Shown here one piece after another: positions 3,893-27,211 of a DNA stretch of 40,000 bases; position 1 is the stretch's first letter, and every line of letters starts with the position of its first letter. This DNA is from Lysobacterales bacterium (GTDB lineage Bacteria > Pseudomonadota > Gammaproteobacteria > Xanthomonadales > UBA2363). Made by a program: the position numbers and the translations under genes. The DNA is taken from positions 593,227 through 633,226 of the forward strand of contig JAHCAT010000001.1 in NCBI GenBank assembly GCA_019634735.1, in the 5' to 3' direction. The notes beneath the pieces are model-generated. The model saw only the letters and a program-made list of their open reading frames with translations, did no database searches and was not told the DNA's origin.

Positions 3893-4486
3893 TCAAGAGG
3901 GTGTTTCCCATCCGTCCGCCTCCGCGACGCCCCCCACCGGTGTACAGATCCGCGCCTTCCGATACACGCAGGTGTGCGCATGACGAGCAGCCCGGACGAC
4001 CGGACCCACGAAGCCACGCCGCCGAAGTGCGGTAGCCAGGCAGGCGATCATCCCGGCGTGAGACACAACCAGCACGTCCCGGTCCATCGCCACCAGGCGG
4101 TCGGCCACCGTACCGACGCGGTGCCGGAAGTCGTCGCGACAGTGCCGCTGCGATGCGTGGCCGCTCATCCAGGACAGCCGCAGCCGCCACTTCCAGGCGC
4201 CGAACGGCAGGCGCAGGCCGCCGGTCCGGAAGCGCTCGAAACGGGCCTCCCTGAGCAGGGGCGTGTGCTCGACGCCCTCGCCATGGATCCTCACGGCGGT
4301 GGCGATGGCGCGTGGCTGGTCGCTGCACAGGCAGGCCTGCCAGCGGACGCCACCCAGGTCGAACTCACCGACCACCGGCTCGGCGGCGTCGTAGCGAAAT
4401 GGCCAGTGGTGCAGATCGTCCGAGCTCAGCCACCCCCGCGGCATGGCCTCGGTGACCGGAAAGTGGCGAACAAGCCCGATGTGCAT
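3893..4486 (-). CDS. histidine phosphatase (phosphoglycerate-mutase-like) family protein
   Basis: It has the N-terminal RH motif (GLVRHFPV) and a distal SH motif (VLVVSHAGMI). Confidence 0.65.
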   Translation of the reverse strand: MHIGLVRHFPVTEAMPRGWLSSDDLHHWPFRYDAAEPVVGEFDLGGVRWQACLCSDQPRAIATAVRIHGEGVEHTPLLREARFERFRTGGLRLPFGAWKWRLRLSWMSGHASQRHCRDDFRHRVGTVADRLVAMDRDVLVVSHAGMIACLATALRRRGFVGPVVRAARHAHTCVYRKARICTPVGGVAEADGWETPS

Positions 4487-4641
4487 TGGCCTGTCGTCGA
4501 CGTACGGGCTTTTATCGCGGATTGTCCTGATCCACTGGGACGGGCAGTCCGCGGCCCAATCCGCCGCGAACAGGTCGGCGGTCGCAAGCGGCGGATCGCG
4601 CGGCGGAATACCCGCATGCGCCAGGCAGGCGGCATGACGCG

Positions 4642-5361
4642 TCAGGGCAGCTTCCGCGAGCTAGCCACCTGGCCGTTGAGGGGCACGTAAACCTGCCCGG
4701 TGACCTTGCCGGTCTCGTCCCTCAGGAACACCAGCACGCCGCCCGCACCGTCCACCCTGAAGGTGTCCGGCGCCACCGCGACCAGGCGCGCCGGCGGTCC
4801 GCCATCGCTGACCCGGAGCACGTCGCCGTCCAGGCTCACCGTATCGACCAGGCCGTCGCCGTAGTCGTAGCGGCCGGCGTACCCGGCCAGCACGGCCGCA
4901 TCGACGGCGATCGCCCGGGCCGGCTCGACGACCGGCGTCTCCTGGTGATGCACCAGCAGCCAGCGCCCGTCCTGGACACGGAACAGGTTGCTCTCCACCC
5001 AGCGCGCGGTGGCCGCCGGGGCCTGCTCGACCATCACGCTGTCGACCAGCACGTGGCCGCCCAACGGTCGCCAGTCCAGCGCCTCGACCCGGTACCGGAC
5101 CGCCCCGCCGTGGCCGCCGTGGCTGCGCACATAGGCCGGCATGTCGGCCCGCGACCGGCGCACGCCAATGTCTGAAACGTGCACGAACCCGTCGGCCAGC
5201 AGGGCGCCATAGCGTTCGGCATCGCCGTCCGCGAACGCCGAGATCCGCGCCAGGATCAGCGCCTCGAAGACCTCGGCCGAGGGCGTCGGTGCAGACGTCC
5301 GAGCGGGCGTCGAGAGCAGGACCGCTGCCGTGGCCAGCACGGCGATGAGGAACCGGATCAT
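4642..5361 (-). CDS. secreted protein with a SnoaL/DUF4440-like (NTF2 fold) domain and a beta-rich C-terminal domain
   Basis: The signal peptide is MIRFLIAVLATAAVLLSTPARTSA. The NTF2-like segment is ISAFADGDAERYGALLADGFVHV. The C-terminal segment YAGRYDYGDGLVDTVSLDGDVLRV...FRVDGAGGVLVFLRDETGKVTG resembles the C-terminal extension of S12 peptidases. Confidence 0.55.
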   Translation of the reverse strand: MIRFLIAVLATAAVLLSTPARTSAPTPSAEVFEALILARISAFADGDAERYGALLADGFVHVSDIGVRRSRADMPAYVRSHGGHGGAVRYRVEALDWRPLGGHVLVDSVMVEQAPAATARWVESNLFRVQDGRWLLVHHQETPVVEPARAIAVDAAVLAGYAGRYDYGDGLVDTVSLDGDVLRVSDGGPPARLVAVAPDTFRVDGAGGVLVFLRDETGKVTGQVYVPLNGQVASSRKLP

Positions 5362-5852
5362 GGGCTTTGCCCCTCAAGTCCTGGCGCGACCCCGAACGCC
5401 AGCCGCATCGGCAGGAAGCGTATCCCATCGCTCTCCACGAGGTCGCCGTCCGGCCGGAAGCCGAACGCGCGGTAGACGGCCACGGCGTTCGCACTGGCGT
5501 TGACCGTGAAGATCACCTCGGCACCGACGTGCTTTTCCATTGCGCGCGCACGGGCCGCGTGCCAGAGCGCCCGCGCCAAACCGGAGCGCTGATGGGGCCG
5601 GGCGACGAACAGGTGGAACAGGTGGGTACGGTCGCGCAGGGCGATGAAGCCTGCCAGATCGGCGTTGCGCTCGGCGACGAGGAAGAGATAGCGGGGCGAG
5701 GACAGGTAGTCCCGTTCCGCCGATTCGGAAACCGACGCCAGGAAAGCTTCGGCCCCTGCGCCGGAGGGATCGACGGTGAGCATGGGCTGGAAGCTGGCGA
5801 TCAGCGCGGCGATGGGACCCGCATCGGCCGGCGTGGCGGTGCGGATGATCAC
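5358..5852 (-). CDS. GNAT-family N-acetyltransferase
   Basis: ORF 5358..6059. The GNAT core starts at VIIRTATPADAGPIAALI, and RPHQRSGLARALWHAARARA is the CoA-binding motif. The start is uncertain (GTG at 5850-5852 or upstream). The 4-nt overlap with 4642..5361 suggests an operon. Confidence 0.65.
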   Translation of the reverse strand: MIIRTATPADAGPIAALIASFQPMLTVDPSGAGAEAFLASVSESAERDYLSSPRYLFLVAERNADLAGFIALRDRTHLFHLFVARPHQRSGLARALWHAARARAMEKHVGAEVIFTVNASANAVAVYRAFGFRPDGDLVESDGIRFLPMRLAFGVAPGLEGQSP

Positions 5853-16850: not shown

Positions 16851-17459
16851 TTGCCAGATGGAAAACAGGGCCACTACAGCACCCGGCTGTGGCGCAGCAC
16901 CCGCCGCTTCCTGTTCCGCGCCGGCAACCTGACCCGGGTGTTTCGCGCCAGGGTGCTGGCCGCCCTGCGGGCCCTGGGCCTGACCCTGCCCGACCCGCTG
17001 CCCGACACCTGGGTGGCCGACTGCACCCGGGTCGGCCGCGGCGAACAGGCCCTGGCCTACCTCGCCCGCTACCTCTACCGCGGCGTGCTCAGCGAACGCG
17101 ACCTGCTCGGCTGCGACGACCAGCGTGTCCGCTTCCGCTACCGCGACAGCACCGGCCAGACCCGCATCCGCTGCCTGCCCGGCGCCGGGTTCCTGGCCCT
17201 GCTGCTCCAGCATGTCCTGCCCAAGGGCTTCCGCCGCGTGCGCGACTTCGGCCTGCTGCACCCCAGGCGCAAGGCCCTGCTGGCACGCGTGCAACTGCTG
17301 CTGCAGGTCCACCTGCCCGACCTGCCCGCACCGGCCCGCTGCCGCCTCCTGTGCCCGCACTGCGGCGAACCCATGCGCATCGTCGCCACCCGCCTGACAC
17401 CGGCGCAGGCGCACCGACGACGAACCCCGCACCACGACCACCGGAGCCGTGCCATGTGA
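16851..17459 (+). pseudogene. IS91-family (Y2/rolling-circle) transposase, C-terminal fragment only
   Basis: The fragment contains FLFRAGNLTRVFRARVLAALRA, WVADCTRVGRGEQALAYLARYLYRG (the Y-x-x-x-Y motif), FLALLLQHVLPKGFRRVRDFGLL and a terminal CPHCG. The N-terminal zinc-finger and HUH part is absent, and the frame opens only with a TTG. Confidence 0.7.
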
Positions 17460-17689
17460 GCGCGAAAACACCGTGCCGCACCGAAACACGAGGCCGTGCG
17501 CCTCGACGGGCAGGCTGCGTCCGAAACAGCCCTTCGCGCCCATGCGCCGGCGAAAACCGGCCGGGCAACGTCGCCACGAACCGCTCCGCACCCCGCACCG
17601 CACGCGCACAGCGCCAACGCGACACTGCACCTCGGCGCCATCGCGAATGCTGTTTCCCTTAAGAACGTATCGGCAAGCCTGACCGGGCT

Positions 17690-17746
17690 TGTTCAACAAC
17701 CGGATCAGATCGCGGCTGCGCGCGATCTATCCTTTGCCGTTAGGTG
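17690..17746 (-). repeat. attC of cassette 10 (short class, last site of the array)
   Basis: Read on the minus strand it is ACCTAAC ... AGATCGCG/CGCGATCT hairpin ... GTTGAAC. The cassette-10 TAA stop lies in the inverse core. Confidence 0.6.
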
Positions 17747-18066
17747 CGTGCCGTACCGAAGCGGGCAGCAGCGAGTCCGAGCGAGCCGGCGCCCACCAGA
17801 AGCGCGATGTGGAGGATGGGGACAACATTCCCATGCACTACTTCGGGAAGCACGCCCGTGTAGGCGACTTCGCTAGAGCTCAAGGCATAAGTCATCGGAA
17901 AGGCGGACATGACACCCGAACCCACCGCGAAGACTGCGAATAGACCAAGAGCGACGAGCGCGCTGTGCCTACGCGAAACGCGCCAAAGCGAGTAGGCGGA
18001 CCACGCAAGGAGGGCGCCGGTCGCGACCGGAATCCACGGGAAGATGAGACTCGCGATTTCGTTCAT
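17740..18066 (-). CDS. cassette 10: small integral membrane protein
   Basis: The start is MNEIASLIFPWIPVATGALLAW... (ATG at 18064-18066; an alternative GTG at 18078 overlaps the attC core). It has 3-4 TM helices. Confidence 0.65.
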   Translation of the reverse strand: MNEIASLIFPWIPVATGALLAWSAYSLWRVSRRHSALVALGLFAVFAVGSGVMSAFPMTYALSSSEVAYTGVLPEVVHGNVVPILHIALLVGAGSLGLAAARFGTART

Positions 18067-18076
18067 GGCAGTCAGC

Positions 18077-18140
18077 ACCTAACGTTTGAGCTCAGGCCGC
18101 GGCCCGTCAGGGCCGTCGCGCCTGCAGCGAATGGTTATGT
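18077..18140 (-). repeat. attC of cassette 9 (short class)
   Basis: Read on the minus strand it is ACATAAC cattc GCTGCAGGCGCG ... GCGGCCTGAGCTC aaac GTTAGGT. Confidence 0.7.
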
Positions 18141-18301
18141 CCTTCCTCCTCGCATTCATTCCAATGGAAATATCCATCTGAAGTGACGGAAAAATTCTCA
18201 GAGGGCCTCTTCCTTAGCGGCACTTCTGGATCGAATCTCAGAAGCCCTGGCAATAGAGACGACCGCTCAAGGTACTTGGAGTTCTTTTTGTTCTTCTTCA
18301 T
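18107..18301 (-). CDS. cassette 9, possible third gene: 64-aa basic peptide
   Basis: The ATG lies 2 nt after the kinase stop (TAGAAATG). The N-terminus is MKKNKKNSKYLERSS, and the ORF runs into the attC. It would fill an otherwise unexplained 164-nt gap between the kinase stop and the attC. Support is weak. Confidence 0.3.
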   Translation of the reverse strand: MKKNKKNSKYLERSSLLPGLLRFDPEVPLRKRPSENFSVTSDGYFHWNECEEEGHNHSLQARRP

Positions 18302-18303
18302 TT

Positions 18304-19362
18304 CTAGTTTTCCCGGAGGAATTTCTTAATTTCGGCCCTACCTAGACTTGCGGTGCAGTACTCGGTGATTCTCCTCTTTGTGCCATCTTTTGAGAGAACA
18401 AATGCTTCCGATGATTGGTCGTCATTTAGTACGAGATTTACCTCTTTGCCGTTATCCAATTCTTTTACCCAGCGCCGGAACCCAGTGCCATACTCCATGC
18501 GCCAATCCAGCAAGGCCTCTTCAATATCCGAAACAGCATTAACAACTTCTATGGCTGATGTAAAGCGCTGAGCAAGATCAGTCTGCAAGCACTTGCGAAT
18601 TGCGTTCACAAATTTCTGAGGGATGTGCTCCGGATACTGATTTCGACTAGGAAATTGGCCGTTACGCACAGCGACCTTGAATGCATTCCTTTCTAGAGTT
18701 CCGTTCCTGACAAACCCGCTGTACTCGCCATAGAAGTGAGCATCGCCTACGCTCATTCGATGCATAGTCAGACCCATCTGATATATATCGAACTGCCGGG
18801 TAAAATCCTGATTTTGAAAAGCCTCAGGAGGAACCATTTTTCCGTAGATTCGGTCTTGCCCTGCAACACCAGAATAGGACGTTTGCTTTGCGAGCCCAAA
18901 ATCCGACAGCATCGCTTCCCCCCTCTCAGAAAGGAGAATGTTGTCTGGCTTTACGTCAAAGTGAATTAGCCCTTTTGAATGTATGTTGTGAATTCCACTC
19001 AACACTTGAGTGGACACCACTATCATTTCTCTGACGGTTAGGGGTCTGCTAGCCATTCGAGCCTTTAAGGAACCCTTGCCATACAGAGGCATTGCCAAAT
19101 AGACATGATCTACGTCATGGCAAGCGTAGTGAATTGGAACCACATTAGGATGCGCGCTCAGATATAAGAGGCTTGCCTCGACAAAGTACTCATCTATGTC
19201 AGTAAACGTAGTCTTTTTCACCTTCTTGACGACTATTTCCGCATTTAGCTGCAGATCCCTCGCCTTGAATACTTGCGAGTTCCTGCCTTCTGACCCGATC
19301 TCATCACCGAGTTGAAAACTTAATTCGGCGGTATTTGGAGGCTTAAGCATTGGTGGCTCCAA
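18304..19362 (-). CDS. cassette 9: Hanks-type (eukaryotic-like) Ser/Thr protein kinase with an uncharacterised C-terminal domain
   Basis: The motifs are the G-loop IGSEGRNSQVF, lysine IVVKKV, catalytic loop HFDVKPDNILL (non-RD), SDFGLAK, PPE, DIYQMGLT and late QRFTSA. About 65-85 C-terminal residues have no motif. The ORF overlaps the upstream gene by 20 nt. Confidence 0.85.
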   Translation of the reverse strand: MEPPMLKPPNTAELSFQLGDEIGSEGRNSQVFKARDLQLNAEIVVKKVKKTTFTDIDEYFVEASLLYLSAHPNVVPIHYACHDVDHVYLAMPLYGKGSLKARMASRPLTVREMIVVSTQVLSGIHNIHSKGLIHFDVKPDNILLSERGEAMLSDFGLAKQTSYSGVAGQDRIYGKMVPPEAFQNQDFTRQFDIYQMGLTMHRMSVGDAHFYGEYSGFVRNGTLERNAFKVAVRNGQFPSRNQYPEHIPQKFVNAIRKCLQTDLAQRFTSAIEVVNAVSDIEEALLDWRMEYGTGFRRWVKELDNGKEVNLVLNDDQSSEAFVLSKDGTKRRITEYCTASLGRAEIKKFLREN

Positions 19363-19801
19363 TTGCAGCCATTACTGCCTCTCGCTGCTCTTTAGTAAGG
19401 TCAGCCCAACTATCTACGCAATCCATTGATAGTTCGCCTTCCGCGTAGCGCTTGAAGTCTTTTCTGGCAATTCCCATCCTCGCAGACAAACTGGATATCT
19501 GCCCGCAAAGATACGAGCTCAATCCACTGCTGGCGAATGCCTCTTGCACTACACCTTCAATTTCAACTCTGCGGACTGGCACTGTTTGCGCGTTGCTTTC
19601 AATAATTCGTATTGCGGCCTTTTTTATCTCGTACTCCCTAAGCACATCGAGAACATTGTTCCTGACGTATTTCAGCGCCTCTGGAACAGACAGAGCGTTG
19701 GGAATGCGAATTTCCTCTACGTTGAGTATTTTTTCCACAGAGGCGTCATAAACTGCGATTGTTATCGCGTTCGGCCTCGCTCTTATGCCCATCGTGTTCA
19801 C
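19343..19801 (-). CDS. cassette 9: 152-aa protein, possible RNase-H-like fold (DUF3010-like), no intact acidic catalytic set
   Basis: The GTG start at 19801 is preceded by GGAGGA (complement of 19808-19813). The predicted beta-beta-beta-alpha-beta-alpha order (GIRARPNAITIAVYD..KILNVEEIRIP..ALKYVRNNVLDVL..AAIRIIES..) is my inference only. Confidence 0.7.
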   Translation of the reverse strand: MNTMGIRARPNAITIAVYDASVEKILNVEEIRIPNALSVPEALKYVRNNVLDVLREYEIKKAAIRIIESNAQTVPVRRVEIEGVVQEAFASSGLSSYLCGQISSLSARMGIARKDFKRYAEGELSMDCVDSWADLTKEQREAVMAAIGATNA

Positions 19802-19819
19802 TCTGTGTCCTCCAGAAGG

Positions 19820-19908
19820 ACATAACGATTGAGTTGAGCGGCGCGCACGCCGGTGTATGAGCTTGGCACTTTATCCCTCACGCGTCCGCTCGAACGAGTT
19901 GTTAGGCA
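19820..19908 (-). repeat. attC of cassette 8 (class A, about 88 bp)
   Basis: The plus strand reads cataacgattgagttgagcggcgcgc...cgcgtccgctcgaacgagttgttaggc. It is roughly 90% identical by eye to the site at 22189-22277. Confidence 0.8.
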
Positions 19909-20327
19909 TCACGCCACTCCACAACAAGCTGGCTGGCGGGCTCAGCAAGCCAGACCTTGATTCTCCGACCAAGCTCATTGATGTCCGCCGGATTGCAACG
20001 AAGAGAAAAGGCGCTGGTTGCGCGATTTGGTTCCGCGCCTCGAACTTCCATTAGAACCTCAAGCGCCGAATGACCGGTGCCGTTAAGGACGTGGGCGCGA
20101 AGCCGCATGTGTCCAAACCACTTCGGGTCGGGACCACCGGATTCCCATACCACCTCGTCCTTCGGGCTAGCCGGAAAGTTCTCAAGGCCTGAGGCAAACG
20201 TCAGGAGATCGGCCGGGTAAGCGTACAGCTCCATTCGGGCCGACGTGCGCTCGTTCGAGGCGCCGACATCTAGCTGCAGCATGCCGTCATCGTCTCTCCA
20301 AATGCCCTTGAGGTCCACGCGCGACAT
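19902..20327 (-). CDS. cassette 8: hypothetical protein (141 aa)
   Basis: The ORF fills the cassette. Its TAA stop lies in the attC inverse core. I recognise no family. Confidence 0.7.
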   Translation of the reverse strand: MSRVDLKGIWRDDDGMLQLDVGASNERTSARMELYAYPADLLTFASGLENFPASPKDEVVWESGGPDPKWFGHMRLRAHVLNGTGHSALEVLMEVRGAEPNRATSAFSLRCNPADINELGRRIKVWLAEPASQLVVEWRDA

Positions 20328-20336
20328 TGATCGTGA

Positions 20337-20427
20337 TGCCTAACGCCGTGCTAACCGGCCGCGGGCCGATAGTGGTTGGTTTGAACGTAACACATCCCCG
20401 CAGGTCCGGTTGAGCACATAGTTAGAT
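20337..20427 (-). repeat. attC of cassette 7 (class B, about 90 bp)
   Basis: The plus strand reads gcctaacgccgtgctaaccggccgcgggcc ... caggtccggttgagcacatagttaga. Confidence 0.8.
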
Positions 20428-20428
20428 T

Positions 20429-21148
20429 TCACCGCCGAGACGTGGCTGCGGCAATGTGGAGTACTGGCCCTTCTAGGGAGAACTCCTGGGCCACTGCCTC
20501 CGCATCGCCCCACATGGACATAGGTGTACCGTGGTCACACTGGCATATGGATGCGAGGACGTCGCCCACGCCAGTGTTCCTGATCTGAAGGAGGCTATCG
20601 AGCTCGCCTTGGGTCCAAGGAGAACGAGACGCGGACCTGCTACTGTCGAACTGAGCCGTTTCATCGTGCCAAGTACAGGATGATCCTTCGCTTTGGAGGT
20701 GGGCCGCCTGCTGACCGAAGGGCAACTCACAATAGAACATCTCAAAGATTGCGAAGCGAGGCCAGAACCGCGCTTGCCGAGTGAGCTGATCGGAGAAATG
20801 CGAAAGGCCCGAGGCTGTTTGCGCATAGTCCCACCGGTACATGCTGGTGCCAAAGCGGGGCAGCTTTGCCTCGAACATTGCGATCTTGATGTGGCCGTTG
20901 GAAGAAATGAGGATTGTTGCGTCACATCCAGTACGCTGTTCAATTCTCGGCTGCAGCACGAAGCTCGTCGCCGAGAGGCCCGTGGAGCTATTGCTGTTTA
21001 TGATTCTTCGGAGCGCGCCGGTGAAGTTTGAAGTGTAATCGTCCTCTCCGGAAATATAGCCAAGGGAAAGATCGCTGCGCGCTTCTTTGTCAGCAACGGA
21101 GGCGAAGTTGCAGAGCTCTGCTATCTGCTGAGGTGGCATGGACAACAC
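20429..21148 (-). CDS. cassette 7: putative PD-(D/E)xK nuclease-fold protein
   Basis: The motif context is TGCDATILISSNGHIKIAMFEAKLP, that is Asp on one strand and E-x-K on the next. The GTG start at 21148 follows GGAGG by 7 nt; an alternative ATG is at 21139. Confidence 0.7.
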   Translation of the reverse strand: MLSMPPQQIAELCNFASVADKEARSDLSLGYISGEDDYTSNFTGALRRIINSNSSTGLSATSFVLQPRIEQRTGCDATILISSNGHIKIAMFEAKLPRFGTSMYRWDYAQTASGLSHFSDQLTRQARFWPRFAIFEMFYCELPFGQQAAHLQSEGSSCTWHDETAQFDSSRSASRSPWTQGELDSLLQIRNTGVGDVLASICQCDHGTPMSMWGDAEAVAQEFSLEGPVLHIAAATSRR

Positions 21149-21166
21149 TAGGAAGCCTCCAGTGAG

Positions 21167-21256
21167 ATCTAACGCCGTGTTAACCGGCCTGCGGCCGACA
21201 GTGATCGGTTCATTCGAACTACCTCCCAGCAGGTCCGGTTGAACACATAGTTAGAC
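21167..21256 (-). repeat. attC of cassette 6 (class B)
   Basis: The plus strand reads tctaacgccgtgttaaccggcctgcggccga ... caggtccggttgaacacatagttaga. Confidence 0.8.
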
Positions 21257-21257
21257 C

Positions 21258-21629
21258 TCACCACCGCGCGCCAAGGTACTTCTTCAGGTGTTCTCGGACT
21301 GGCGTGGAAGCATGATCAAACCAGACTCCATTGAGCAGCAGTCGAAACTGCGGGCTTCTACGTGCGTGGGTTTCGATCTCGCTCAACAATTCGATGCCGT
21401 GAAATGCGATGAGATCCTCAAGCGGTCCCGCGGCTAGTACCTGAAAGTGCCGGCTTGTGGTGTCAGCCGGTATCCTGCCAAGAACTTCAACTATCGCCTC
21501 CAGCGCCAGACGCGGATCGATTCCAGGCAACGAGTCGTCCAAGTCATTCTCAGTCGGCTCGTGCGCCTCCGGAGGCTTACGCCACTTCTCAATCCACGCG
21601 ATGGCAATGGACTCCGCGGATGAGTTCAT
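21258..21629 (-). CDS. cassette 6: hypothetical protein (123 aa)
   Basis: The ORF fills the cassette and looks helical (LALEAIVEVLGRIP...AAGPLEDLIAFHGIELLSEIE). I cannot name a family with confidence. Confidence 0.7.
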   Translation of the reverse strand: MNSSAESIAIAWIEKWRKPPEAHEPTENDLDDSLPGIDPRLALEAIVEVLGRIPADTTSRHFQVLAAGPLEDLIAFHGIELLSEIETHARRSPQFRLLLNGVWFDHASTPVREHLKKYLGARW

Positions 21630-21634
21630 GTGAG

Positions 21635-21724
21635 GTCTAACGCCGGGCTAACCCGCCGCCGGCCGACAGCGGTCCGTTGACACGCAATGGCTCTCCGGCG
21701 GTCGGGTTGAGCACATAGTTATGC
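21635..21724 (-). repeat. attC of cassette 5 (class B)
   Basis: The plus strand reads tctaacgccgggctaacccgccgccggccga ... cggtcgggttgagcacatagttatg. Confidence 0.8.
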
Positions 21725-22192
21725 GTCGTCGCCTGGACGCTCATGGGGATACTCTCGAATCCGCTGGACTGCCTCCCGCTCACGGTCCTCATAGAACGGC
21801 CCTAGCGGGAACGACCCGTTGATGTGAGTGACCCAGTTGTGGTCCGAGTCAAGGTAGAACACGTAGTAGAAGCCGGCGAGCAATCCCAAACTGCAGTTGC
21901 CCGGACCGAAGACAAGATCACGAACCTTGCCACGACGCTCGGGGGAACCCTTCAGGCTTTCAGCAAGTTCGTATCTTGCCTCGACATACTCGCAGTCGTC
22001 GTCATCGAGATCTTCGACTTCGCACTCTCGACCCCGCAGTCGCTTAAGCTGGGTCGAGACGACCTTTGCAACAAAGACGTGTGATGCCTCGTCGAACAAC
22101 TGCGCATCAGTTGGACGATGGAGACGAGAGCAAGCATCCGCTGGTGGGGCCACGAGTGCTAGCACGATGCCGAATGCGAGACTAAGACGCAT
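21719..22192 (-). CDS. cassette 5: secreted protein with a TIMP/NTR-like N-terminus
   Basis: The signal peptide is MRLSLAFGIVLALVAPPADA. The mature N-terminus CSRLHRPTDAQLFDEASHVFVAKVVS resembles TIMP [25 protein letters not shown]. The ATG lies inside the preceding core site (GTTATG). Confidence 0.7.
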   Translation of the reverse strand: MRLSLAFGIVLALVAPPADACSRLHRPTDAQLFDEASHVFVAKVVSTQLKRLRGRECEVEDLDDDDCEYVEARYELAESLKGSPERRGKVRDLVFGPGNCSLGLLAGFYYVFYLDSDHNWVTHINGSFPLGPFYEDREREAVQRIREYPHERPGDDA

Positions 22193-22277
22193 AACGGTGG
22201 AGTTGAGCGGCGCGCGCGCCGATGTATGAGCTTGGCACTTTATTTCTCACGCGTCCGCTCGAACGATTTGTTAGGCC
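22189..22277 (-). repeat. attC of cassette 4 (class A)
   Basis: The plus strand reads cataacggtggagttgagcggcgcgcgcgcc...cgcgtccgctcgaacgatttgttaggc. Confidence 0.8.
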
Positions 22278-22912
22278 GCGACACGCTTTCGTAGCCATTG
22301 CACCATTTCCATGTGGCCGGGACCGACCAGGCCTAAAGCCCGGTGATGTTTAAGACCAGATTCCGTTTGCGATGCCGCCTCAAGAGCCGCATAGGCATTC
22401 CTCACCGCCTCGGGCGCTTGGCCACGCGCATCAGCGATAACGGCTCGCGCCGCCGAGGCTTTGAAACGCGAGACAGGAAACGGGCCGGTATCGTCAGGCA
22501 ACAACTCTATGGCTTCATCATAAAGGTCACTGCGGCGAAGGGATGCGATAAGCCACGGAAACTCCACGGCAACCCCACAATCAAGGTTCGGCGCCTGCCT
22601 GTTCGCTCTGAGTGATGCCCGGTAGTGCTCGAAGGCTTGCTCCGGCTGCTTCAGTAGCACGTGGCACTCGGCGGCTTGCGCATGCGCCTGCGTTTGCTCG
22701 TAGGGATCTGAGAACTCTTCTAGATGCTGCTCTAGCAGTTGCAGCGCGACGCGCACCAAACTCTCTTTTCCCGTCGATGCTAACTCAACCGCCTGGATCC
22801 TTAGATACTGGGCGCGATTGCCTGATCCTCTGGATTTTGCGAGGCGAGCGAAGAATGCCTCCGCGATCGCTGGAGACCACGTGTGGTTCCGAAACCAGTC
22901 GTCTCGCGCCAT
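22271..22912 (-). CDS. cassette 4: all-helical repeat (TPR-like) protein
   Basis: The 213-aa ORF has repeated helix pairs (AQYLRIQAVELASTGK, AHAQAAECHVLLKQPEQAFEHYRASL, ...). I verified the translation codon by codon against the sequence. Confidence 0.75.
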   Translation of the reverse strand: MARDDWFRNHTWSPAIAEAFFARLAKSRGSGNRAQYLRIQAVELASTGKESLVRVALQLLEQHLEEFSDPYEQTQAHAQAAECHVLLKQPEQAFEHYRASLRANRQAPNLDCGVAVEFPWLIASLRRSDLYDEAIELLPDDTGPFPVSRFKASAARAVIADARGQAPEAVRNAYAALEAASQTESGLKHHRALGLVGPGHMEMVQWLRKRVAA

Positions 22913-22923
22913 GGGTTCCGAGC

Positions 22924-23015
22924 GGCCTAACGCCGCGTTAAGCGGCCGCGGGCCAACGCAACATCAGAAAACACCATGGCCTGTCACCGCGGTCCGCTTG
23001 AACGCATAGTTAGAA
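22924..23015 (-). repeat. attC of cassette 3 (class B)
   Basis: The plus strand reads gcctaacgccgcgttaagcggccgcgggcc ... cgcggtccgcttgaacgcatagttaga. Confidence 0.8.
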
Positions 23016-23016
23016 C

Positions 23017-23943
23017 TCACGTCTCGCGACATTGCGCCGCTTCCTCCTCGGTGAACTCGACATCCTCAATTCTCAAAAGGCCGCTCGCAATCGCAGGCTC
23101 GAAATGCTGAAAGAAGCGATTTCGATCGAATGATCCCCACGTGCCGCGCCCCTCCTCACCAGGGATTTTAAGCATGACGAGATCGAGGTGAGCTTCGACG
23201 TTCTTAGCTACTCGGTAATGATGAATCTTCGAGAGCATCACATACAGACGGTCGCGATAGATTGGATTGACTAGGCGCTCAGGCCGAATGTCGATGAACG
23301 TCTCACGCTCTGAGCTCTTGATGTAGCCATCGAATATTGGCTGGATGTTGCTGACCGGATCAATTCCCTGAAACTGAAACGACAGCTTGGCATCGGTGAT
23401 AACGTTGGATGGGTTTATTTCCCGGCGCTTGAGAAGCTTAGTGAGCGCGATCTCCTCGGCTTTCTCCCAGTTCATGCGCGTGCGAGCCGGGGTATCTGCA
23501 GCGGTAGCCGAAAGTGCACGATTCTCGGTGCTGTTCTTCTCTTCAACCTCCGCTTCTGACGCCCTTTGGACCGTCGGTGACGAAGCATAGTAGTCACCCT
23601 GTACGGTAGTGCTGCTTTGGCGCTGAGCCTGAGAGTTGCTGACGGTGATGAGCTGCGAAAGCAGGTAGGAATTCTGCTTTTCAAGCCTCTCGACCTCGGC
23701 CTCCTTCTTTCGCACTTCACGACTGACAGACAGAAGCTTGCCGACGGAAAAATTGTCAAATGCCTCTGCAAGCACGAGTACAACCAGCAATCCAAGTAGG
23801 GACAGCAATCCCGGCGAAATCTCGCCGACAGGCTGCACTTGGAGAAATCGGAACAGAATCATGCCCGCAATGAGAAGACACAGTAGCGCGATTAGGATTC
23901 TGACGAAGAGATTGGCGCCAGCGTGTTGGCTACGTTCCGCCAT
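23017..23943 (-). CDS. cassette 3: membrane-anchored coiled-coil protein with an unknown C-terminal globular domain
   Basis: It has two N-terminal TM helices (LFVRILIALLCLLIAGMILF and LLSLLGLLVVLVLAEAF), a coiled-coil segment (REVRKKEAEVERLEKQNSYLLSQL), a low-complexity linker and a C-terminal domain of about 150 aa. Confidence 0.75.
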   Translation of the reverse strand: MAERSQHAGANLFVRILIALLCLLIAGMILFRFLQVQPVGEISPGLLSLLGLLVVLVLAEAFDNFSVGKLLSVSREVRKKEAEVERLEKQNSYLLSQLITVSNSQAQRQSSTTVQGDYYASSPTVQRASEAEVEEKNSTENRALSATAADTPARTRMNWEKAEEIALTKLLKRREINPSNVITDAKLSFQFQGIDPVSNIQPIFDGYIKSSERETFIDIRPERLVNPIYRDRLYVMLSKIHHYRVAKNVEAHLDLVMLKIPGEEGRGTWGSFDRNRFFQHFEPAIASGLLRIEDVEFTEEEAAQCRET

Positions 23944-23959
23944 GTGCTACCCCTGTGAG

Positions 23960-24052
23960 TGCTAACGCCGTGTTCAGCGGCCGCGCGGCCGCAGGGCAAT
24001 GGTAGATCGACACGGCCTAATCCGCGCGGTTCGCTGCAACACATAGTTAGCT
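23960..24052 (-). repeat. attC of cassette 2 (class B)
   Basis: The plus strand reads gctaacgccgtgttcagcggccgcgcggcc ... cgcgcggttcgctgcaacacatagttagc. Confidence 0.8.
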
Positions 24053-24655
24053 GTCTTTAACACCAGATGCGATTCCGTGACCTTGTGTTCGCGGGTCGCC
24101 CGCATGCATCGCCTCCCACCAACGGATGCCGCCAGCGACAAAATGGTCCGGGTCGATCGTGTTCCCTTGGGCATCACAAATCACCAGCTCCTCAAACCAG
24201 ACCCACAAATCGAGATGTCGATTTGCCGTGACCCCTTCCTGGAACAGCGCCAAGAGGTTAGTTCGCGCTCCCGCGTCCGACTGTATGTCGAGCGATAGGC
24301 GATGCTTCCACAGCTCCCACGCTTGATCTTCGTGGTTGATGAACTCCCAGCCGTAGATTGGCTGCCCACCAAAGGACTGCACAGTTGAGAGTAGATCGGA
24401 TGCTTCTAGCGGCAAAGGCTTCGCAGCGTAATCGTCCCACCTGCTATCTCGCAGCGCAGCAGCGACGCGGCCAACCTCTTTGAGAATGAGCTGGCGCCTC
24501 GGGTCAGCCGACTCTGGCGAGTGGTCGTCGGGCAGGGTTAGCACGGAAATTGTTACGCCAACCATCTGGCGGACGCGGTCATACTCGACACCCAGAAGCG
24601 AGGCTTCGTTGAGGGCTGTGCCGAGTTCCTTGGCTCGATGCTCGTCAATACGCAT
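24047..24655 (-). CDS. cassette 2: hypothetical protein (202 aa)
   Basis: The ORF fills the cassette. Its TAA stop lies in the attC inverse core. It is Trp-rich, and I recognise no family. Confidence 0.7.
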   Translation of the reverse strand: MRIDEHRAKELGTALNEASLLGVEYDRVRQMVGVTISVLTLPDDHSPESADPRRQLILKEVGRVAAALRDSRWDDYAAKPLPLEASDLLSTVQSFGGQPIYGWEFINHEDQAWELWKHRLSLDIQSDAGARTNLLALFQEGVTANRHLDLWVWFEELVICDAQGNTIDPDHFVAGGIRWWEAMHAGDPRTQGHGIASGVKDS

Positions 24656-24662
24656 TGAAGAC

Positions 24663-24722
24663 AGCTAACGCCTGAATTAAGCCGCGCCGCGAAGCGGCGT
24701 CGGCTTGAATGAATTGTTAGCG
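24663..24722 (-). repeat. attC of cassette 1 (short class, about 58 bp)
   Basis: The plus strand reads gctaacgcctgaattaagccgcgccgcgaagcggcgtcggcttgaatgaattgttagc, a GC-rich central hairpin between the cores. Confidence 0.75.
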
Positions 24723-25172
24723 CTCACTGGACAGCTCCACAAGCTGCTTACCGACGAGCCACTGGTCTATTGCTTCCGGCGCAGTGAGCACCTGAAGTCG
24801 ATAGAACGACTTAGAACAGCACAATAGAGTGCGATTGGCATTCGGGTGCGTGATTAGGACTCCCTCGGTGGATACGCAAGTTGCGGAATCTCCAAAGTGA
24901 TCCTCAAACTCAACCAGGTGAACTGCGTTTTCTTGCTCGGCTTGCAGAGCTTCGGGCGCAGCGGCGCCCAAGTTCAGCTCGGCCTCGATGCGCTCGCACT
25001 CAAACATTGGTTCTTTCTCGACAACGTATGTGCTCACAAGTACAGCTTGGCCAGACTCCAGCAGTACAACTGCACGGCCGGAGCCAAAGCCGACGCATGC
25101 TGCCCAAGGTCGTTCCAAATTTCGCAGGACGGCACGGGTTGACTTGGATGCTAGAAACCGATGGAGCTTCAT
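24717..25172 (-). CDS. cassette 1: hypothetical protein (151 aa)
   Basis: This is the first ORF after attI. Its ATG lies 7 nt from the GTTAGC junction. I recognise no family. Confidence 0.7.
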   Translation of the reverse strand: MKLHRFLASKSTRAVLRNLERPWAACVGFGSGRAVVLLESGQAVLVSTYVVEKEPMFECERIEAELNLGAAAPEALQAEQENAVHLVEFEDHFGDSATCVSTEGVLITHPNANRTLLCCSKSFYRLQVLTAPEAIDQWLVGKQLVELSSER

Positions 25173-25178
25173 GTGAGC

Positions 25179-25250
25179 GCTAACTTGATGTATGCGCCGG
25201 ATGCGGCGGATAAGGGGGAGTGTTCAGGGTTCGGGCGGGGCCGTCAATAG
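25179..25250 (-). other. attI region (recombination junction GTTAGC at 25179-25184), with a candidate Pc promoter
   Basis: The plus-strand gctaac at 25179-25184 is the attI/cassette-1 junction. On the minus strand, TTGACG (25242-25247), a 17-nt spacer and AACACT (25219-25224) form a weak sigma-70-like candidate. The extent of attI is not determinable by eye. Confidence 0.5.
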
Positions 25251-25344
25251 GAAATTTCCCACCTCGATACAGTGCTTTGGCTGACGACATGGGGGGTGCC
25301 AGTGGTCCAGGCTGCACCCGGATATCCATGCAAGGTGCTGGGGT

Positions 25345-26391
25345 ATGGCTTCTCGTGGCGGAACTGCCGGGGTATGCGGGCGCGGGCCGATGGCGCCGGA
25401 GGCGCGCAAACCCCGCCTGTTCGACGAAGTTCGCCGCTGCTTGCGGGTGCGGCACTACAGTCTGGCGACCGAGAAGTGCTACCTGCAATGGCTGCGCCGG
25501 TTCATCCTGGCCAACGGCAAGCGCCATCCCCGGGAGCTGGGCAAGGCCGAGGTCGAGGCCTTCCTGTCCGGCCTGGCGGTCGCGGGCAAGGTGGCGCCAA
25601 GCACCCAGAACCAGGCGCTGGCGGCGCTGCTGTTCGTTTACCGGCATGTGCTGGAACTGGATCTGCCCTGGCTGGACGGCGTGGTGCGGGCGCGCAGCCG
25701 GCAGCGGGTGCCGACGGTGCTGGCGCGCAGCGAGGTCGGGGCGCTGCTGCTGGCGATGGACGGCCGACCGTGGCTGCTGGCCAGCCTGCTCTACGGCACC
25801 GGCATGCGGCTGATGGAGTGCCTGCGCCTACGGATCAAGGACGTCGACTTTGCCCGCCACGAGATCACGGTGCGCCAGGGCAAGGGCGGCAAGGACCGGC
25901 ACACCGTGCTGCCGGCCACGCTGGTGCCGGCCCTGCACCTGGAAGTCCAGCGCGCGCTGCGCCTGCATGGCCACGACCTGGCGCGCGGGCTGGGCGAGGC
26001 AGCCCTGCCGCACGCGCTGGCGCGCAAATACCTTGGCGCCGCTCGCGAACCCGGTTGGCAGTTCGTGTTTCCCTCCGCCCGGCTGTCGCGCGATCCGCTC
26101 GACGGCACGCTGCGCCGCCACCATGTCGACGCCGCGGTTCTGGCGCGGGCCCTGCGCAAGGCCTGTCGCGCCGCCAACCTCGTCAAGCACGTCAGCGCGC
26201 ACACGCTTCGGCACAGCTTTGCCACCCACCTGCTCGAGGATGGCTACGACATCCGCACCGTGCAGGAGCTGCTTGGCCACAGCGATGTGGGCACCACCCA
26301 GATCTACACGCACGTGCTCAACCGGGGCGGGCGCGGGGTGGTGAGCCCACTGGATCGCACCAGCAGGCCTCTTTCACATTCGTCGGCTTGA
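25345..26391 (+). CDS. intI: integron integrase IntI (tyrosine recombinase)
   Basis: Conserved segments are KPRLFDEVRRCLRVRHYSLATEKCYLQWLRRFI, GTGMRLMECLRLRIKDVDF, the IntI-specific insert [52 protein letters not shown] and TQIYTHV. It is full length with no frameshift. An alternative start is at 25390 (MAPEARKPRL). Confidence 0.9.
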   Translation: MASRGGTAGVCGRGPMAPEARKPRLFDEVRRCLRVRHYSLATEKCYLQWLRRFILANGKRHPRELGKAEVEAFLSGLAVAGKVAPSTQNQALAALLFVYRHVLELDLPWLDGVVRARSRQRVPTVLARSEVGALLLAMDGRPWLLASLLYGTGMRLMECLRLRIKDVDFARHEITVRQGKGGKDRHTVLPATLVPALHLEVQRALRLHGHDLARGLGEAALPHALARKYLGAAREPGWQFVFPSARLSRDPLDGTLRRHHVDAAVLARALRKACRAANLVKHVSAHTLRHSFATHLLEDGYDIRTVQELLGHSDVGTTQIYTHVLNRGGRGVVSPLDRTSRPLSHSSA

Positions 26392-26966: not shown

Positions 26967-27067
26967 GGGTGCTTGCGCTATTGGCGTCAGAGCACGCTTT
27001 CCCCGTGGCAGCTCCGGCAAGCGCGGTGGACCACGGTGCAAAACGTGGTCTGACCCCTGGCGGCTAA

Positions 27068-27211
27068 GACATCCGCACGGTGCAGGAACTGCTCGGCCAC
27101 GCCGACGCGTCGCCCACGCAGATCTACACGCATGTGCTCGATCGCGGCGGGCGCGGGGTGCGCAGTCCGCTGGACGGGGTGTCCCCGATGCCCTCGGTCC
27201 CAGCCTGTTGA
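27068..27211 (+). pseudogene. relic 3-prime end of a second integron integrase gene
   Basis: It translates to [37 protein letters not shown]..., parallel to [37 protein letters not shown] at the end of the intact intI. It is preceded in frame by TAA, and no upstream integrase sequence is present. Confidence 0.8.

What the first reader, a model, noticed from the sequence alone, without database searches (positions are those of the whole stretch)
18082..19824. Candidate novel system: an AT-rich multi-gene integron cassette with a small RNase-H-like protein, a Hanks-type Ser/Thr kinase and possibly a basic peptide
**What the sequence shows.** This is the largest cassette in the array (about 1.74 kb between the attC at 19820-19908 and the attC at 18077-18140) and the only one with more than one gene.
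- The 152-aa ORF (19343-19801) has a GGAGGA-spaced GTG start and overlaps the 352-aa kinase ORF (18304-19362) by 20 nt.
- A 64-aa ORF starts 2 nt after the kinase stop and runs into the attC.
- The kinase keeps every catalytic element: G-loop GSEGRNSQV, VVKK lysine, HFDVKPDN, DFG, PPE and DIYQMG. It should therefore be active.
- The kinase is a non-RD type and carries a C-terminal domain of about 65-85 aa with no motif I know.
- The partner protein has a strand/helix order that reminds me of RNase-H-like or DUF3010-type folds, but the first acidic residue is missing (GIRARP where a RuvC-like protein has GIDPG).
- Spot GC counts on two 60-nt lines are 38% and 45%, against about 70% in the flanks. 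This suggests foreign origin.

**Why it matters.** Established knowledge is that integron cassettes are known carriers of toxin-antitoxin modules and compact anti-phage systems, and that kinases act as effectors or sensors in several defence and TA systems (HipA, Stk2-type). I know of no described system pairing a Hanks kinase with this kind of small partner in a cassette. My inference is that this is either a kinase-based abortive-infection or defence module, or a new kinase-toxin/antitoxin pair.
Basis: partly seen in the sequence, partly recalled or inferred. Interest (0 to 1): 0.85.

Follow-up and report, generated by a model that had tools for sequence, protein, structure and literature searches.

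The report
Phage-933W-type Stk kinase module in integron
This integron cassette carries a three-gene set (a RuvC-shaped protein without nuclease residues, a protein kinase and a small basic peptide) that is a relative of the Stk locus of Shiga-toxin phage 933W, whose kinase is already known to abort infection by another phage, so the kind of system is known although the two partner genes appear unstudied.

Summary
A 1,743-bp, 47.8% GC cassette (18083-19825, minus strand) lies between two attC sites, ninth of ten cassettes behind an intact integron integrase. It carries three coupled genes: a 152-aa protein, a 348-aa Hanks-type kinase (true start is the ATG at 19350, not the TTG at 19362) and a 64-aa basic peptide.

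The "novel system" reading is only partly right. The kinase is 38% identical over its full length to Stk of Stx phages (933W, phi24B), and the 152-aa protein is 36% identical to the gene just upstream of stk there. A small ORF also follows stk in the phages. Published work reports that 933W Stk aborts HK97 superinfection.

New here:
- The trio is a conserved, self-contained mobile module. Of 80 species genomes, 77 keep an intact kinase directly downstream, and 69 of 75 loci have the peptide. It also occurs in a Bacillus SPbeta-like phage and a Bacillus plasmid.
- The partner has a RuvC fold, but the family carries invariant basic residues where RuvC has its first two catalytic carboxylates.

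The most likely function is a phage-triggered abortive-infection kinase. The roles of the partners are inferred. Verdict: new member of a known kind, moderate interest.

The parts
19820..19908 (-). Upstream attC. The R'' core GCCTAAC is at 19908-19902 and the R' core GTTATGT at 19826-19820. The kinase cassette begins at T19825.
   Evidence: Repeat family D6, 92% identical to the attC at 22190-22276. Aligned with eight other attC sites. Sequence read.
18083..19825 (-). The integron cassette: 1,743 bp, 47.8% GC, three genes. It is ninth of ten cassettes counted from intI.
   Evidence: attC cores; GC content.
19808..19813 (-). Shine-Dalgarno GGAGGA, 6 nt upstream of the GTG start of gene 1. Only about 24 nt separate the attC core from the start codon, which leaves no room for a promoter inside the cassette.
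   Evidence: Sequence. No sigma-70-like site on the minus strand in 17600-20500.
19343..19801 (-). Gene 1: a 152-aa protein with a RuvC fold and no canonical nuclease site (a 'pseudo-RuvC'). It is homologous to the 'res' gene upstream of stk in Stx phages. Conserved residues: G5, R7, R47, R/K65, E68, R78, E82, E87, E141.
   Evidence: AF2 pLDDT 94.5. Foldseek matches RuvC at TM 0.67-0.73. 36% identity to the phage res protein, E = 9e-35. Residue conservation. Forced alignment to RuvC. No Pfam, NCBIfam or PADLOC family.
18304..19350 (-). Gene 2: a 348-aa Stk-like Hanks-type protein kinase of the non-RD type (HFD), with a C-terminal beta-sheet-plus-helix domain (residues about 283-347). The ATG at 19350 overlaps the stop of gene 1 by 8 nt.
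   Evidence: Pfam Pkinase 1.2e-39. 38% identity over 348 aa to Stx-phage Stk, E = 2e-82. Homologues are 346-350 aa. Invariant catalytic residues. AF2 pLDDT 84.9 with a confident C-terminal domain. Foldseek matches eukaryotic-type kinases.
18107..18301 (-). Gene 3: a 64-aa basic peptide that starts 2 nt after the kinase stop. It has a conserved N-terminal motif (KN...Y..R) and a C-terminal motif (GY.xW). The variable tail and the stop codon lie inside the attC.
   Evidence: An ORF in the same position with the same motifs in 69 of 75 loci. Called independently by other annotations.
18077..18146 (-). Downstream attC of the cassette, a short type of about 64-70 nt. R'' is ACATAAC and R' is GTTAGGT at 18083-18077.
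   Evidence: Hairpin of -20 kcal/mol, z = -3.1. Aligned cores.
25345..26391 (+). Integron integrase gene intI, divergent from the cassette array. It is context and not part of the module.
   Evidence: TIGR02249 integron integrase, 453.6 bits against a cutoff of 265. Pfam Phage_integrase and SAM_4.

Best explanation
The cassette carries a three-gene relative of the res-stk-orf module from the immunity region of Stx phages such as 933W. The most likely function is phage exclusion by abortive infection.

The three proteins are made from one transcript by coupled translation (8-nt and 2-nt junctions). The kinase is the effector. Its catalytic residues are intact and it is a non-RD kinase, so it probably does not depend on activation-loop phosphorylation. 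It is probably held inactive in uninfected cells. A component of an infecting phage would switch it on, and it would then phosphorylate host proteins, and possibly phage proteins, so that the infection yields no progeny.

The RuvC-fold protein is not a canonical nuclease. It most likely acts as the regulator or sensor subunit. It could do this by binding the kinase, or by binding branched DNA or a phage recombination protein. The small basic peptide has two conserved tyrosines and is a candidate pseudo-substrate, inhibitor or adaptor.

Shown here: homology, gene architecture, conservation, the predicted folds and the mobility of the module. Taken from the literature on 933W: the abortive-infection phenotype of Stk. 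Inferred: that this copy behaves the same way, and every statement about how the two partner proteins work.
For: **Homology to the Stx-phage module**
- Both main proteins match their Stx-phage counterparts over the full length: kinase 38% identity (E = 2e-82), partner 36% (E = 9e-35).
- Gene order, sizes (153 / 348 / 54 aa) and overlaps are the same in the phages.
- 933W itself carries the module.

**Published function of the phage kinase**
- 933W Stk is co-transcribed with cI, shows little or no activity in uninfected cells, is activated on HK97 infection and aborts it (PMC3681748, PMC3564112, PMC8008677, PMC6356687).

**Conservation of the module**
- A kinase sequence lies directly downstream of the partner gene in 78 of 80 species genomes, one of them (L079) only a truncated remnant.
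- 59 of 60 fully aligned loci have the same 8-nt overlap.
- The peptide is present in 69 of 75 loci.
- No other neighbouring gene is conserved, the usual signature of a self-contained mobile module.

**Mobility**
- The module occurs in an integron cassette, in lambdoid and SPbeta-like phages, on plasmids and in chromosomal islands beside HigB/SymE toxin genes.

**State of the kinase**
- The catalytic residues are invariant.
- In L072 the kinase is absent, and in L079 it is truncated, while the partner gene stays intact. This fits a kinase that is the costly or toxic effector.
Against: - There is no phenotype for this copy or for any non-phage copy.
- I could not read Friedman 2011 or Tyler and Friedman 2004. 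I therefore do not know whether res and the small ORF are needed for exclusion in 933W.
- The cassette has no visible promoter of its own and sits about 5.5 kb from the attI end of the array, so it may be poorly expressed here.
- The PADLOC matches (mad6 173.8 bits, PD-T4-6 127 bits) cover only the generic kinase domain. They are equally good for 933W Stk and add little. PD-T4-6 models also label housekeeping kinases (PMC11514479).
- At 38% identity the trigger and the targets may differ from those of 933W Stk.
Confidence: 0.6

Rival explanations
1. Toxin-antitoxin or addiction module. The kinase is a growth-arresting toxin, and the RuvC-fold protein and/or the small peptide neutralise it. The role in the array would be to stabilise the cassette array against deletion rather than, or in addition to, defence against phage.
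For: - The operon is compact, with overlapping genes and a small upstream partner.
- Distribution is patchy and mobile.
- The partner gene is retained where the kinase is lost or truncated, as happens with antitoxins.
- TA genes lie next to the Xanthomonas sp. 3272 copy.
- It is established knowledge that chromosomal integrons often carry TA cassettes.
Against: - None of the three proteins has a DNA-binding autoregulator domain.
- No promoter is visible within the cassette, whereas TA cassettes usually carry their own.
- 933W Stk is reported to have little or no activity in uninfected cells and needs a phage trigger (PMC3681748).
- The partner is as strongly conserved as an enzyme or sensor (nine near-invariant charged residues), unlike typical fast-evolving antitoxins.
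- TA and abortive infection are not mutually exclusive.
Confidence: 0.2
2. Nuclease effector. The RuvC-fold protein is an active nuclease with a non-canonical site, and it degrades phage or host DNA. The kinase is its sensor or switch.
For: - The RuvC fold matches over the full length.
- Acidic residues E68, E82, E87 and E141 are strictly conserved and could form a new site.
- Phage annotators call the homologue a resolvase.
Against: - In a secondary-structure-consistent alignment, RuvC D7 and E66 correspond to R7 and R/K65. R7 is conserved in 127 of 129 sequences and R/K65 in 129 of 129.
- No known RNase-H-like nuclease works without the first carboxylate (established knowledge of the two-metal mechanism).
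- The published 933W phenotype is attributed to the kinase.
Confidence: 0.08
3. An ordinary signalling kinase operon, or silent cargo: a housekeeping or niche-specific phosphorylation pathway with no role in conflict with phages or mobile elements.
For: Hanks kinases are common regulators. The cassette sits far from the array promoter and may not be expressed.
Against: - The family is rare: 486 clusters among 1.84 billion representatives, and 109 confirmed hits among 185,579 species genomes.
- It is scattered across Alpha-, Beta- and Gammaproteobacteria, Cyanobacteria and Bacillus, and is never in a conserved neighbourhood.
- It is carried by phages, plasmids and an integron.
Confidence: 0.05

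Closest known systems
The stk locus (cI - DUF3024 orf - res - stk - small orf) in the immunity region of Stx phages 933W, phi24B and AU6Stx1. Its kinase Stk mediates abortive infection of HK97.
   Same: - The same three genes are in the same order: a RuvC-like protein of 153 vs 152 aa, a kinase of 348 vs 348 aa, and a small basic ORF of 54 vs 64 aa starting 2-3 nt after the kinase stop.
- Genes 1 and 2 overlap in both.
- Identity is 36% and 38% over the full length, including the kinase C-terminal domain.
- Both have a non-RD HFD catalytic loop and an R7 / R65 / E68 / E141 pattern in the partner.
   Different: - Here the module sits in a promoter-less integron cassette in a 70% GC genome, not in a prophage operon driven by pRM.
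- There is no DUF3024 (PDC-S43) gene upstream.
- Sequence divergence is about 62-64%.
- The peptide shares only a basic N-terminus and a C-terminal aromatic motif with the phage ORF.
- Phenotype, trigger and substrates are untested.
PD-T4-6 (the single-gene Ser/Thr kinase defence system of Vassallo et al. 2022, as modelled in PADLOC) and the MAD6 kinase of MADS
   Same: Both have a Hanks-type kinase domain. Best PADLOC scores are 173.8 bits (mad6) and 127 bits (PD-T4-6).
   Different: - The matches cover only the kinase domain (residues about 14-283).
- The C-terminal domain and both partner proteins have no PADLOC model.
- MAD6 is a 659-position model that belongs to a multi-gene methylation system.
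- PD-T4-6 models also hit housekeeping PASTA kinases.
RuvC Holliday-junction resolvase, and the RuvC-like RNase H clade D that includes DUF3010 (Majorek et al. 2014, PMC3985635)
   Same: The fold and size are the same: beta-beta-beta-alpha-beta-alpha-beta-alpha, about 150 aa, TM 0.70-0.73 to Thermus, Deinococcus and E. coli RuvC. It is a single-domain protein like DUF3010.
   Different: - No sequence-level similarity is detectable (hhalign probability below 1%).
- No member hits Pfam DUF3010.
- The first two catalytic carboxylates are replaced by conserved Arg and Arg/Lys.
- The protein is always encoded next to a kinase.
Staphylococcal Stk2 and other kinase-based abortive-infection systems; HipA-type kinase toxins
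   Same: The logic is the same: a kinase that is activated, or toxic, and halts the cell during phage attack. This rests on established knowledge and on reviews cited.
   Different: Stk2 is a single-gene system with a different domain layout. HipA has a different kinase fold and a HipB DNA-binding antitoxin. Neither was tested here beyond the PADLOC and NCBIfam scans.

Membership tests
933W-type Stk module (res-stk-orf) | The kinase is homologous to 933W Stk over the full length, including the C-terminal non-kinase domain. | tested here: met
   38% identity, 348 vs 348 aa, E = 2e-82, aligned from residue 1 to residue 348.
933W-type Stk module (res-stk-orf) | A RuvC-like gene of about 150 aa lies immediately upstream and overlaps the kinase start. 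| tested here: met
   36% identity to the phage res protein, E = 9e-35. The overlap is 8 nt here. Phage res at 4001-4462 overlaps stk at 4456-5502.
933W-type Stk module (res-stk-orf) | A small basic ORF starts within a few nt of the kinase stop. | tested here: met
   64 aa with a 2-nt spacer here. 54 aa with a 2-nt spacer (start 3 nt after the stop) in the phages. The motif is shared with 69 of 75 loci but only weakly with the phage ORF.
933W-type Stk module (res-stk-orf) | Abortive infection or exclusion of a superinfecting phage, with phage-dependent activation of the kinase. | not testable with these tools
   Known only for 933W Stk from the literature.
Hanks-type (eukaryote-like) protein kinase, catalytically competent | G-loop, VAIK Lys, alphaC Glu, HxD...N catalytic loop, DFG, APE-like motif, subdomain IX Asp and subdomain XI Arg. 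| tested here: met
   G19/G22, K42, E58, H130-D132-K134-N137, D150-F-G, P174-P-E, D188 and R262 are all present and invariant in 40 homologues. Pfam Pkinase 136.8 bits. Eukaryotic-type kinase fold.
RuvC Holliday-junction resolvase | RNase-H-like RuvC fold. | tested here: met
   pLDDT 94.5. Foldseek TM 0.67-0.73, E down to 4.8e-8, against RuvC structures.
RuvC Holliday-junction resolvase | Catalytic carboxylate tetrad (E. coli D7, E66, D138, D141). | tested here: not met
   In a forced but secondary-structure-consistent alignment, D7 aligns with R7, E66 with R65, D138 with a variable position and D141 with E141. R7 is present in 127 of 129 sequences and R/K65 in 129 of 129. The alignment was not checked by 3D superposition.
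Pfam DUF3010 (PF11215) | A match to the family HMM. | tested here: not met
   None of 42 members hits PF11215, even at E <= 10. One homologue carries that name in UniRef.
PADLOC PD-T4-6 / MADS MAD6 | A full-length match to a system-specific model, plus the partner genes in the case of MADS. | tested here: not met
   Only the kinase domain matches (residues 14-283). The NCBIfam MAD6 score is 97 bits against a cutoff of 460. No MADS partner genes are present.
Integron gene cassette | Bounded by attC sites with R''/R' cores and a hairpin, in an array next to intI. | tested here: met
Type II toxin-antitoxin module | Toxicity of one product neutralised by the other, usually with an autoregulated promoter of its own. 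| not testable with these tools
   Indirect evidence only: no promoter-like site, no DNA-binding domain, and kinase loss with partner retention in two loci.

The most novel reading that the evidence does not exclude
The Stk-type defence may be an obligate three-protein machine that has been overlooked for about 20 years. In this reading the pseudo-RuvC, whose former metal site has been rebuilt into an invariant Arg/Glu cluster, senses phage recombination intermediates or phage recombination proteins. Alternatively it binds a phosphorylated ligand. The tyrosine-bearing mini-peptide would gate the kinase. This would be a new sensing principle, a nuclease fold reused as a kinase regulator, spread across Proteobacteria, Cyanobacteria and Bacillus and their phages, and now found as a ready-to-move integron cassette.
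Probability: 0.35. Interest if true: 0.65.

Novelty: new member of a known kind. Interest (0 to 1): 0.5.

Why it matters
- It ties an unannotated integron cassette to an experimentally known abortive-infection kinase. This adds a multi-gene, kinase-based candidate to the short list of defence systems carried by integrons.
- The 933W stk gene turns out to be part of a conserved trio whose two other members (a RuvC-fold protein lacking the nuclease residues, and a roughly 50-65-aa peptide) have, as far as I could find, never been studied. That gives a concrete and cheap hypothesis to test in an existing E. coli model.
- The family has no specific model in Pfam, NCBIfam or PADLOC, so current defence finders see only a generic kinase and miss the partners.

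Tried and rejected
**Family and sequence searches on the partner and peptide**
- Pfam, NCBIfam and PADLOC found nothing for the 152-aa and 64-aa proteins. The weak FAM104 and BpuJI_N hits are below cutoff and I treat them as chance.
- A scan of all 42 family members for DUF3010 found none.
- A profile search against PDB sequences gave only a chance hit to LytB.
- hhalign of the family against E. coli RuvC and against a four-RuvC profile was not significant. The link to RuvC rests on fold only.
- tblastn with the 64-aa peptide found nothing in the loci. This at first suggested a spurious ORF, but the positional ORF analysis overturned that.

**Structure**
- Foldseek on the whole kinase model returns only kinase domains.

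**Literature**
- Searches for the gene pair found no description beyond 933W Stk. The search terms were DUF3010, PD-T4-6, integron + kinase, Hanks + toxin-antitoxin, and kinase + RuvC + abortive infection.
- Friedman 2011, Tyler 2004 and Tyler & Friedman 2004 are not held in the library.

**Queries that failed or were abandoned**
- One contig look-up failed.
- The exact window kinase is not on record in the assembly index, so the host organism was not identified.
- I considered building an attC covariance model to ask how many other copies are cassette-borne, and dropped it as marginal.
Full report
**1. The observation**

The window has about 70% GC on both sides of a lower-GC stretch at roughly 17.7-25.4 kb. 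That stretch is an integron.
- The integrase gene at 25345-26391 (+) scores 453.6 bits on TIGR02249, against a cutoff of 265.
- Nine attC sites share invariant TAAC...GTTA cores.
- There are ten minus-strand cassettes.

The finding is the ninth cassette.
- The downstream attC folds into the expected hairpin: -20 kcal/mol, z = -3.1.
- The cassette is 47.8% GC. The rest of the array is 57.6% and the flanks are 70%.
- It is the largest cassette and the only one with several genes.

**2. The three genes**

- *Gene 1* (19343-19801) starts at GTG, 6 nt after a GGAGGA.
- *Gene 2* is a protein kinase. Pfam Pkinase scores 136.8 bits, E = 1.2e-39.
  - About 120 close homologues are 346-350 aa long. The real start is therefore the ATG at 19350 (348 aa), not the TTG at 19362.
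  - Genes 1 and 2 then overlap by 8 nt (ATGCTTAA).
  - All Hanks catalytic elements are present and invariant across 40 homologues. The HFD catalytic loop makes it a non-RD kinase.
- *Gene 3* (18107-18301, 64 aa) starts 2 nt after the kinase stop and ends inside the attC loop.

**3. A conserved, self-contained trio**

Gene 1 has 173 homologues in the first search, nearly all 150-152 aa.

A scan of one genome per species gave 109 confirmed loci, and 80 were kept.
- In 78 of the 80, a kinase sequence lies directly downstream. One of these, L079, is only a truncated remnant.
- The two loci without a kinase hit are L080, which ends at a contig edge, and L072, where the kinase is absent.
- In 59 of 60 fully aligned loci the overlap is the same 8 nt as in the window.
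- Clustering all neighbouring ORFs found no other gene shared by more than five loci, and those five were close relatives. The module therefore travels on its own.

A tblastn search with the 64-aa peptide found nothing. The positional analysis gave a different answer.
- Almost every locus has a 50-70-aa ORF starting within -3 to +3 nt of the kinase stop.
- 69 of 75 share an N-terminal [IV]KN....Y..R motif and a C-terminal D..[GFW]Y..[FW] motif.
- The window peptide (KKNSKYLER...SDGYFHW) fits both.
- Other gene callers annotate this ORF independently.

Searching from the kinase side shows the same layout in Xanthomonas sp. 3272 and Shewanella algae.

**4. The relative that was already known**

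A protein search of phage genomes found gene 1 homologues in 41 records. Thirty-nine are Stx-converting or related lambdoid E. coli phages, including 933W itself, and two are Bacillus phages.

In AU6Stx1 and phi24B the match lies in the immunity region. The order there is cI, a DUF3024 ORF, 'res / RuvC-like resolvase' (153 aa), stk (348 aa, overlapping res), a 54-aa ORF with a 2-nt spacer after the stk stop, and the pRM terminator.
- The window kinase is 38% identical to Stk from end to end, E = 2e-82.
- Gene 1 is 36% identical to res, E = 9e-35.

Papers I could read state three things about 933W Stk:
- It is a eukaryote-like tyrosine kinase co-transcribed with cI.
- It is activated by HK97 infection and causes abortive infection (PMC3681748, PMC3564112, PMC8008677, PMC6356687, all citing Friedman et al. 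2011).

The primary papers are not in the library. I cannot say whether res or the small ORF were examined. From memory only, an HK97 early gene product was reported as the activator.

The same three-gene layout also occurs in Bacillus phage SPbetaL6 (167 / 350 / 60 aa) and on a Bacillus plasmid (152 / 351 / 62 aa), and on Klebsiella, Providencia and Mesorhizobium plasmids.

**5. What the partner protein is**

With a 42-sequence alignment, AlphaFold2 gives a confident model (pLDDT 94.5) with the order beta-beta-beta-alpha-beta-alpha-beta-alpha.
- Foldseek places it on bacterial RuvC over the full length, TM 0.67-0.73, and on phage RuvC-like proteins.
- Sequence methods see no relation to RuvC.
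- No member hits Pfam DUF3010. DUF3010 is itself a RuvC-like RNase H family (PMC3985635), and one homologue bears that name in UniRef.

I made a forced global alignment with four RuvC sequences taken from PDB entries. It agrees with the predicted secondary structure, and it pairs the catalytic residues as follows:

| RuvC residue | Motif in RuvC | This family |
|---|---|---|
| D7 | GIDPG | R7 (GIRA) |
| E66 | AIE | R65 (AIR) |
| D138 | | variable position |
| D141 | | E141 |

An exhaustive profile search found 486 clusters at E <= 1e-3 among 1.84 billion representatives, almost all single-domain proteins of 150-165 aa. I aligned 129 sequences: 126 full-length representatives among the best 150, plus the three phage and plasmid proteins. 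Conservation is as follows:

| Position | Conserved in |
|---|---|
| R7 | 127 of 129 |
| R47 | 128 of 129 |
| R or K at 65 | 129 of 129 |
| E68 | 126 of 129 |
| R78, E82, E87 | 129 of 129 each |
| E141 | 124 of 129 |

The former two-metal site has therefore been replaced, family-wide and under strong constraint, by an Arg/Glu cluster. I read this as a non-nuclease role in regulation or ligand binding. This is an inference, and the alignment was not verified by superposition.

**6. The kinase model**

The kinase model (pLDDT 84.9) has a standard eukaryotic-type kinase core with a low-confidence activation loop (residues 155-168). It also has a confident C-terminal domain (283-347, pLDDT 93-96) of five strands and a helix. 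This domain is conserved in 933W Stk and matches no Pfam family. Foldseek returns only kinase cores.

**7. Defence databases**

PADLOC hits the kinase domain only (mad6 173.8 bits, PD-T4-6 127 bits). It scores 933W Stk in the same way. The partners have no model. PD-T4-6 models are generic enough to label housekeeping kinases (PMC11514479). These hits show only that the protein is a Hanks kinase of the sort seen in defence systems.

**8. Mechanism and rivals**

- *Best reading (about 0.6):* a phage-triggered abortive-infection kinase of the 933W Stk type, with the pseudo-RuvC and the peptide as regulator or sensor subunits.
- *Main rival (about 0.2):* a toxin-antitoxin or addiction role, which overlaps with the first. 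Two loci that lost the kinase but kept the partner fit a costly kinase under either reading.
- *Against a self-sufficient TA cassette:* there is no promoter-like site and no room for one, and no DNA-binding domain. The same point means this copy, about 5.5 kb from attI, may be weakly expressed until it is moved forward by the integrase.
- *Unlikely:* a true nuclease effector (about 0.08) and a housekeeping role (about 0.05).

**9. Novelty**

The kind of system is known, and the gene trio is visible in phage records as annotated genes. What appears to be new:
- The trio is a conserved unit across phyla and across types of mobile element.
- The 'resolvase' lacks the resolvase active site.
- The small peptide is a real family.
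- The module occurs as an integron cassette.

I found no paper that describes any of these.

My verdict is a new member of a known kind, with interest 0.5.

Noticed in passing
window 17700-26391: A complete chromosomal-type integron. It has an apparently intact intI (348 aa, TIGR02249 453.6 bits) and ten minus-strand cassettes. None of the other nine cassette proteins hits PADLOC. One is a DUF6869 protein (21258-21629), and one (17740-18078) is weakly DUF998-like.
   Followed up: partly
window 19821-19907 and 22190-22276: Two attC sites are 92% identical to each other and differ from the other attC type in the array. This suggests that the cassettes ending at these two sites (the cassettes upstream of each) came from the same source pool.
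   Followed up: no
window 16851-17459 (+): The C-terminal part only of an IS91-family transposase (profile positions 166-354 of 356, 119.6 bits, just under the 125 cutoff), directly beyond the last cassette. The end of the array may have been truncated or rearranged by an IS91/ISCR-type element.
   Followed up: partly
window 26242-26354 and 27062-27174: A 113-nt direct repeat, 81% identical, 820 nt apart, just beyond intI. It is unexplained.
   Followed up: no
L081 3592-3933 (Stx1 phage AU6Stx1), also L082: The DUF3024 gene between cI and res in Stx phages matches the PADLOC candidate family PDC-S43 over its full length (139.8 bits). The pRM operon of these phages may therefore carry a second defence candidate. 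This gene is absent from the integron cassette.
   Followed up: no
L072 9722-10177; L079 9944-10709: There are two natural decay states of the module. In L072 (Sphingomonas MAG) an intact partner gene has no kinase. In L079 (Bradyrhizobium valentinum) an intact partner gene is followed by a kinase truncated after about 60 matching residues.
   Followed up: partly
L089 3390-5148 (Bacillus phage SPbetaL6); L090 3501-5246 (Bacillus sp. JAS24-2 plasmid): The same three-gene module occurs in Firmicutes mobile elements (167 / 350 / 60 aa and 152 / 351 / 62 aa). R7, R/K65, E68 and E141 are kept. The third peptide ends in a GNG[YF]V motif.
   Followed up: partly
L091 2080-6710 (Xanthomonas sp. 3272): The module copy is flanked by a HigB-like toxin / HTH pair and a SymE-like toxin gene, so it sits in a TA/defence-island-like neighbourhood.
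   Followed up: no
L084 3610-8312: The closest long-contig relative (75% identity in gene 1) lies beside a MobI-like gene, a large UvrD/AAA_11/AAA_12 helicase with DUF559/MTES_1575 domains, and a DUF4160/DUF2442 pair. This is a mobile-element or defence-like context next to his genes. No attC was recognised there by eye.
   Followed up: no
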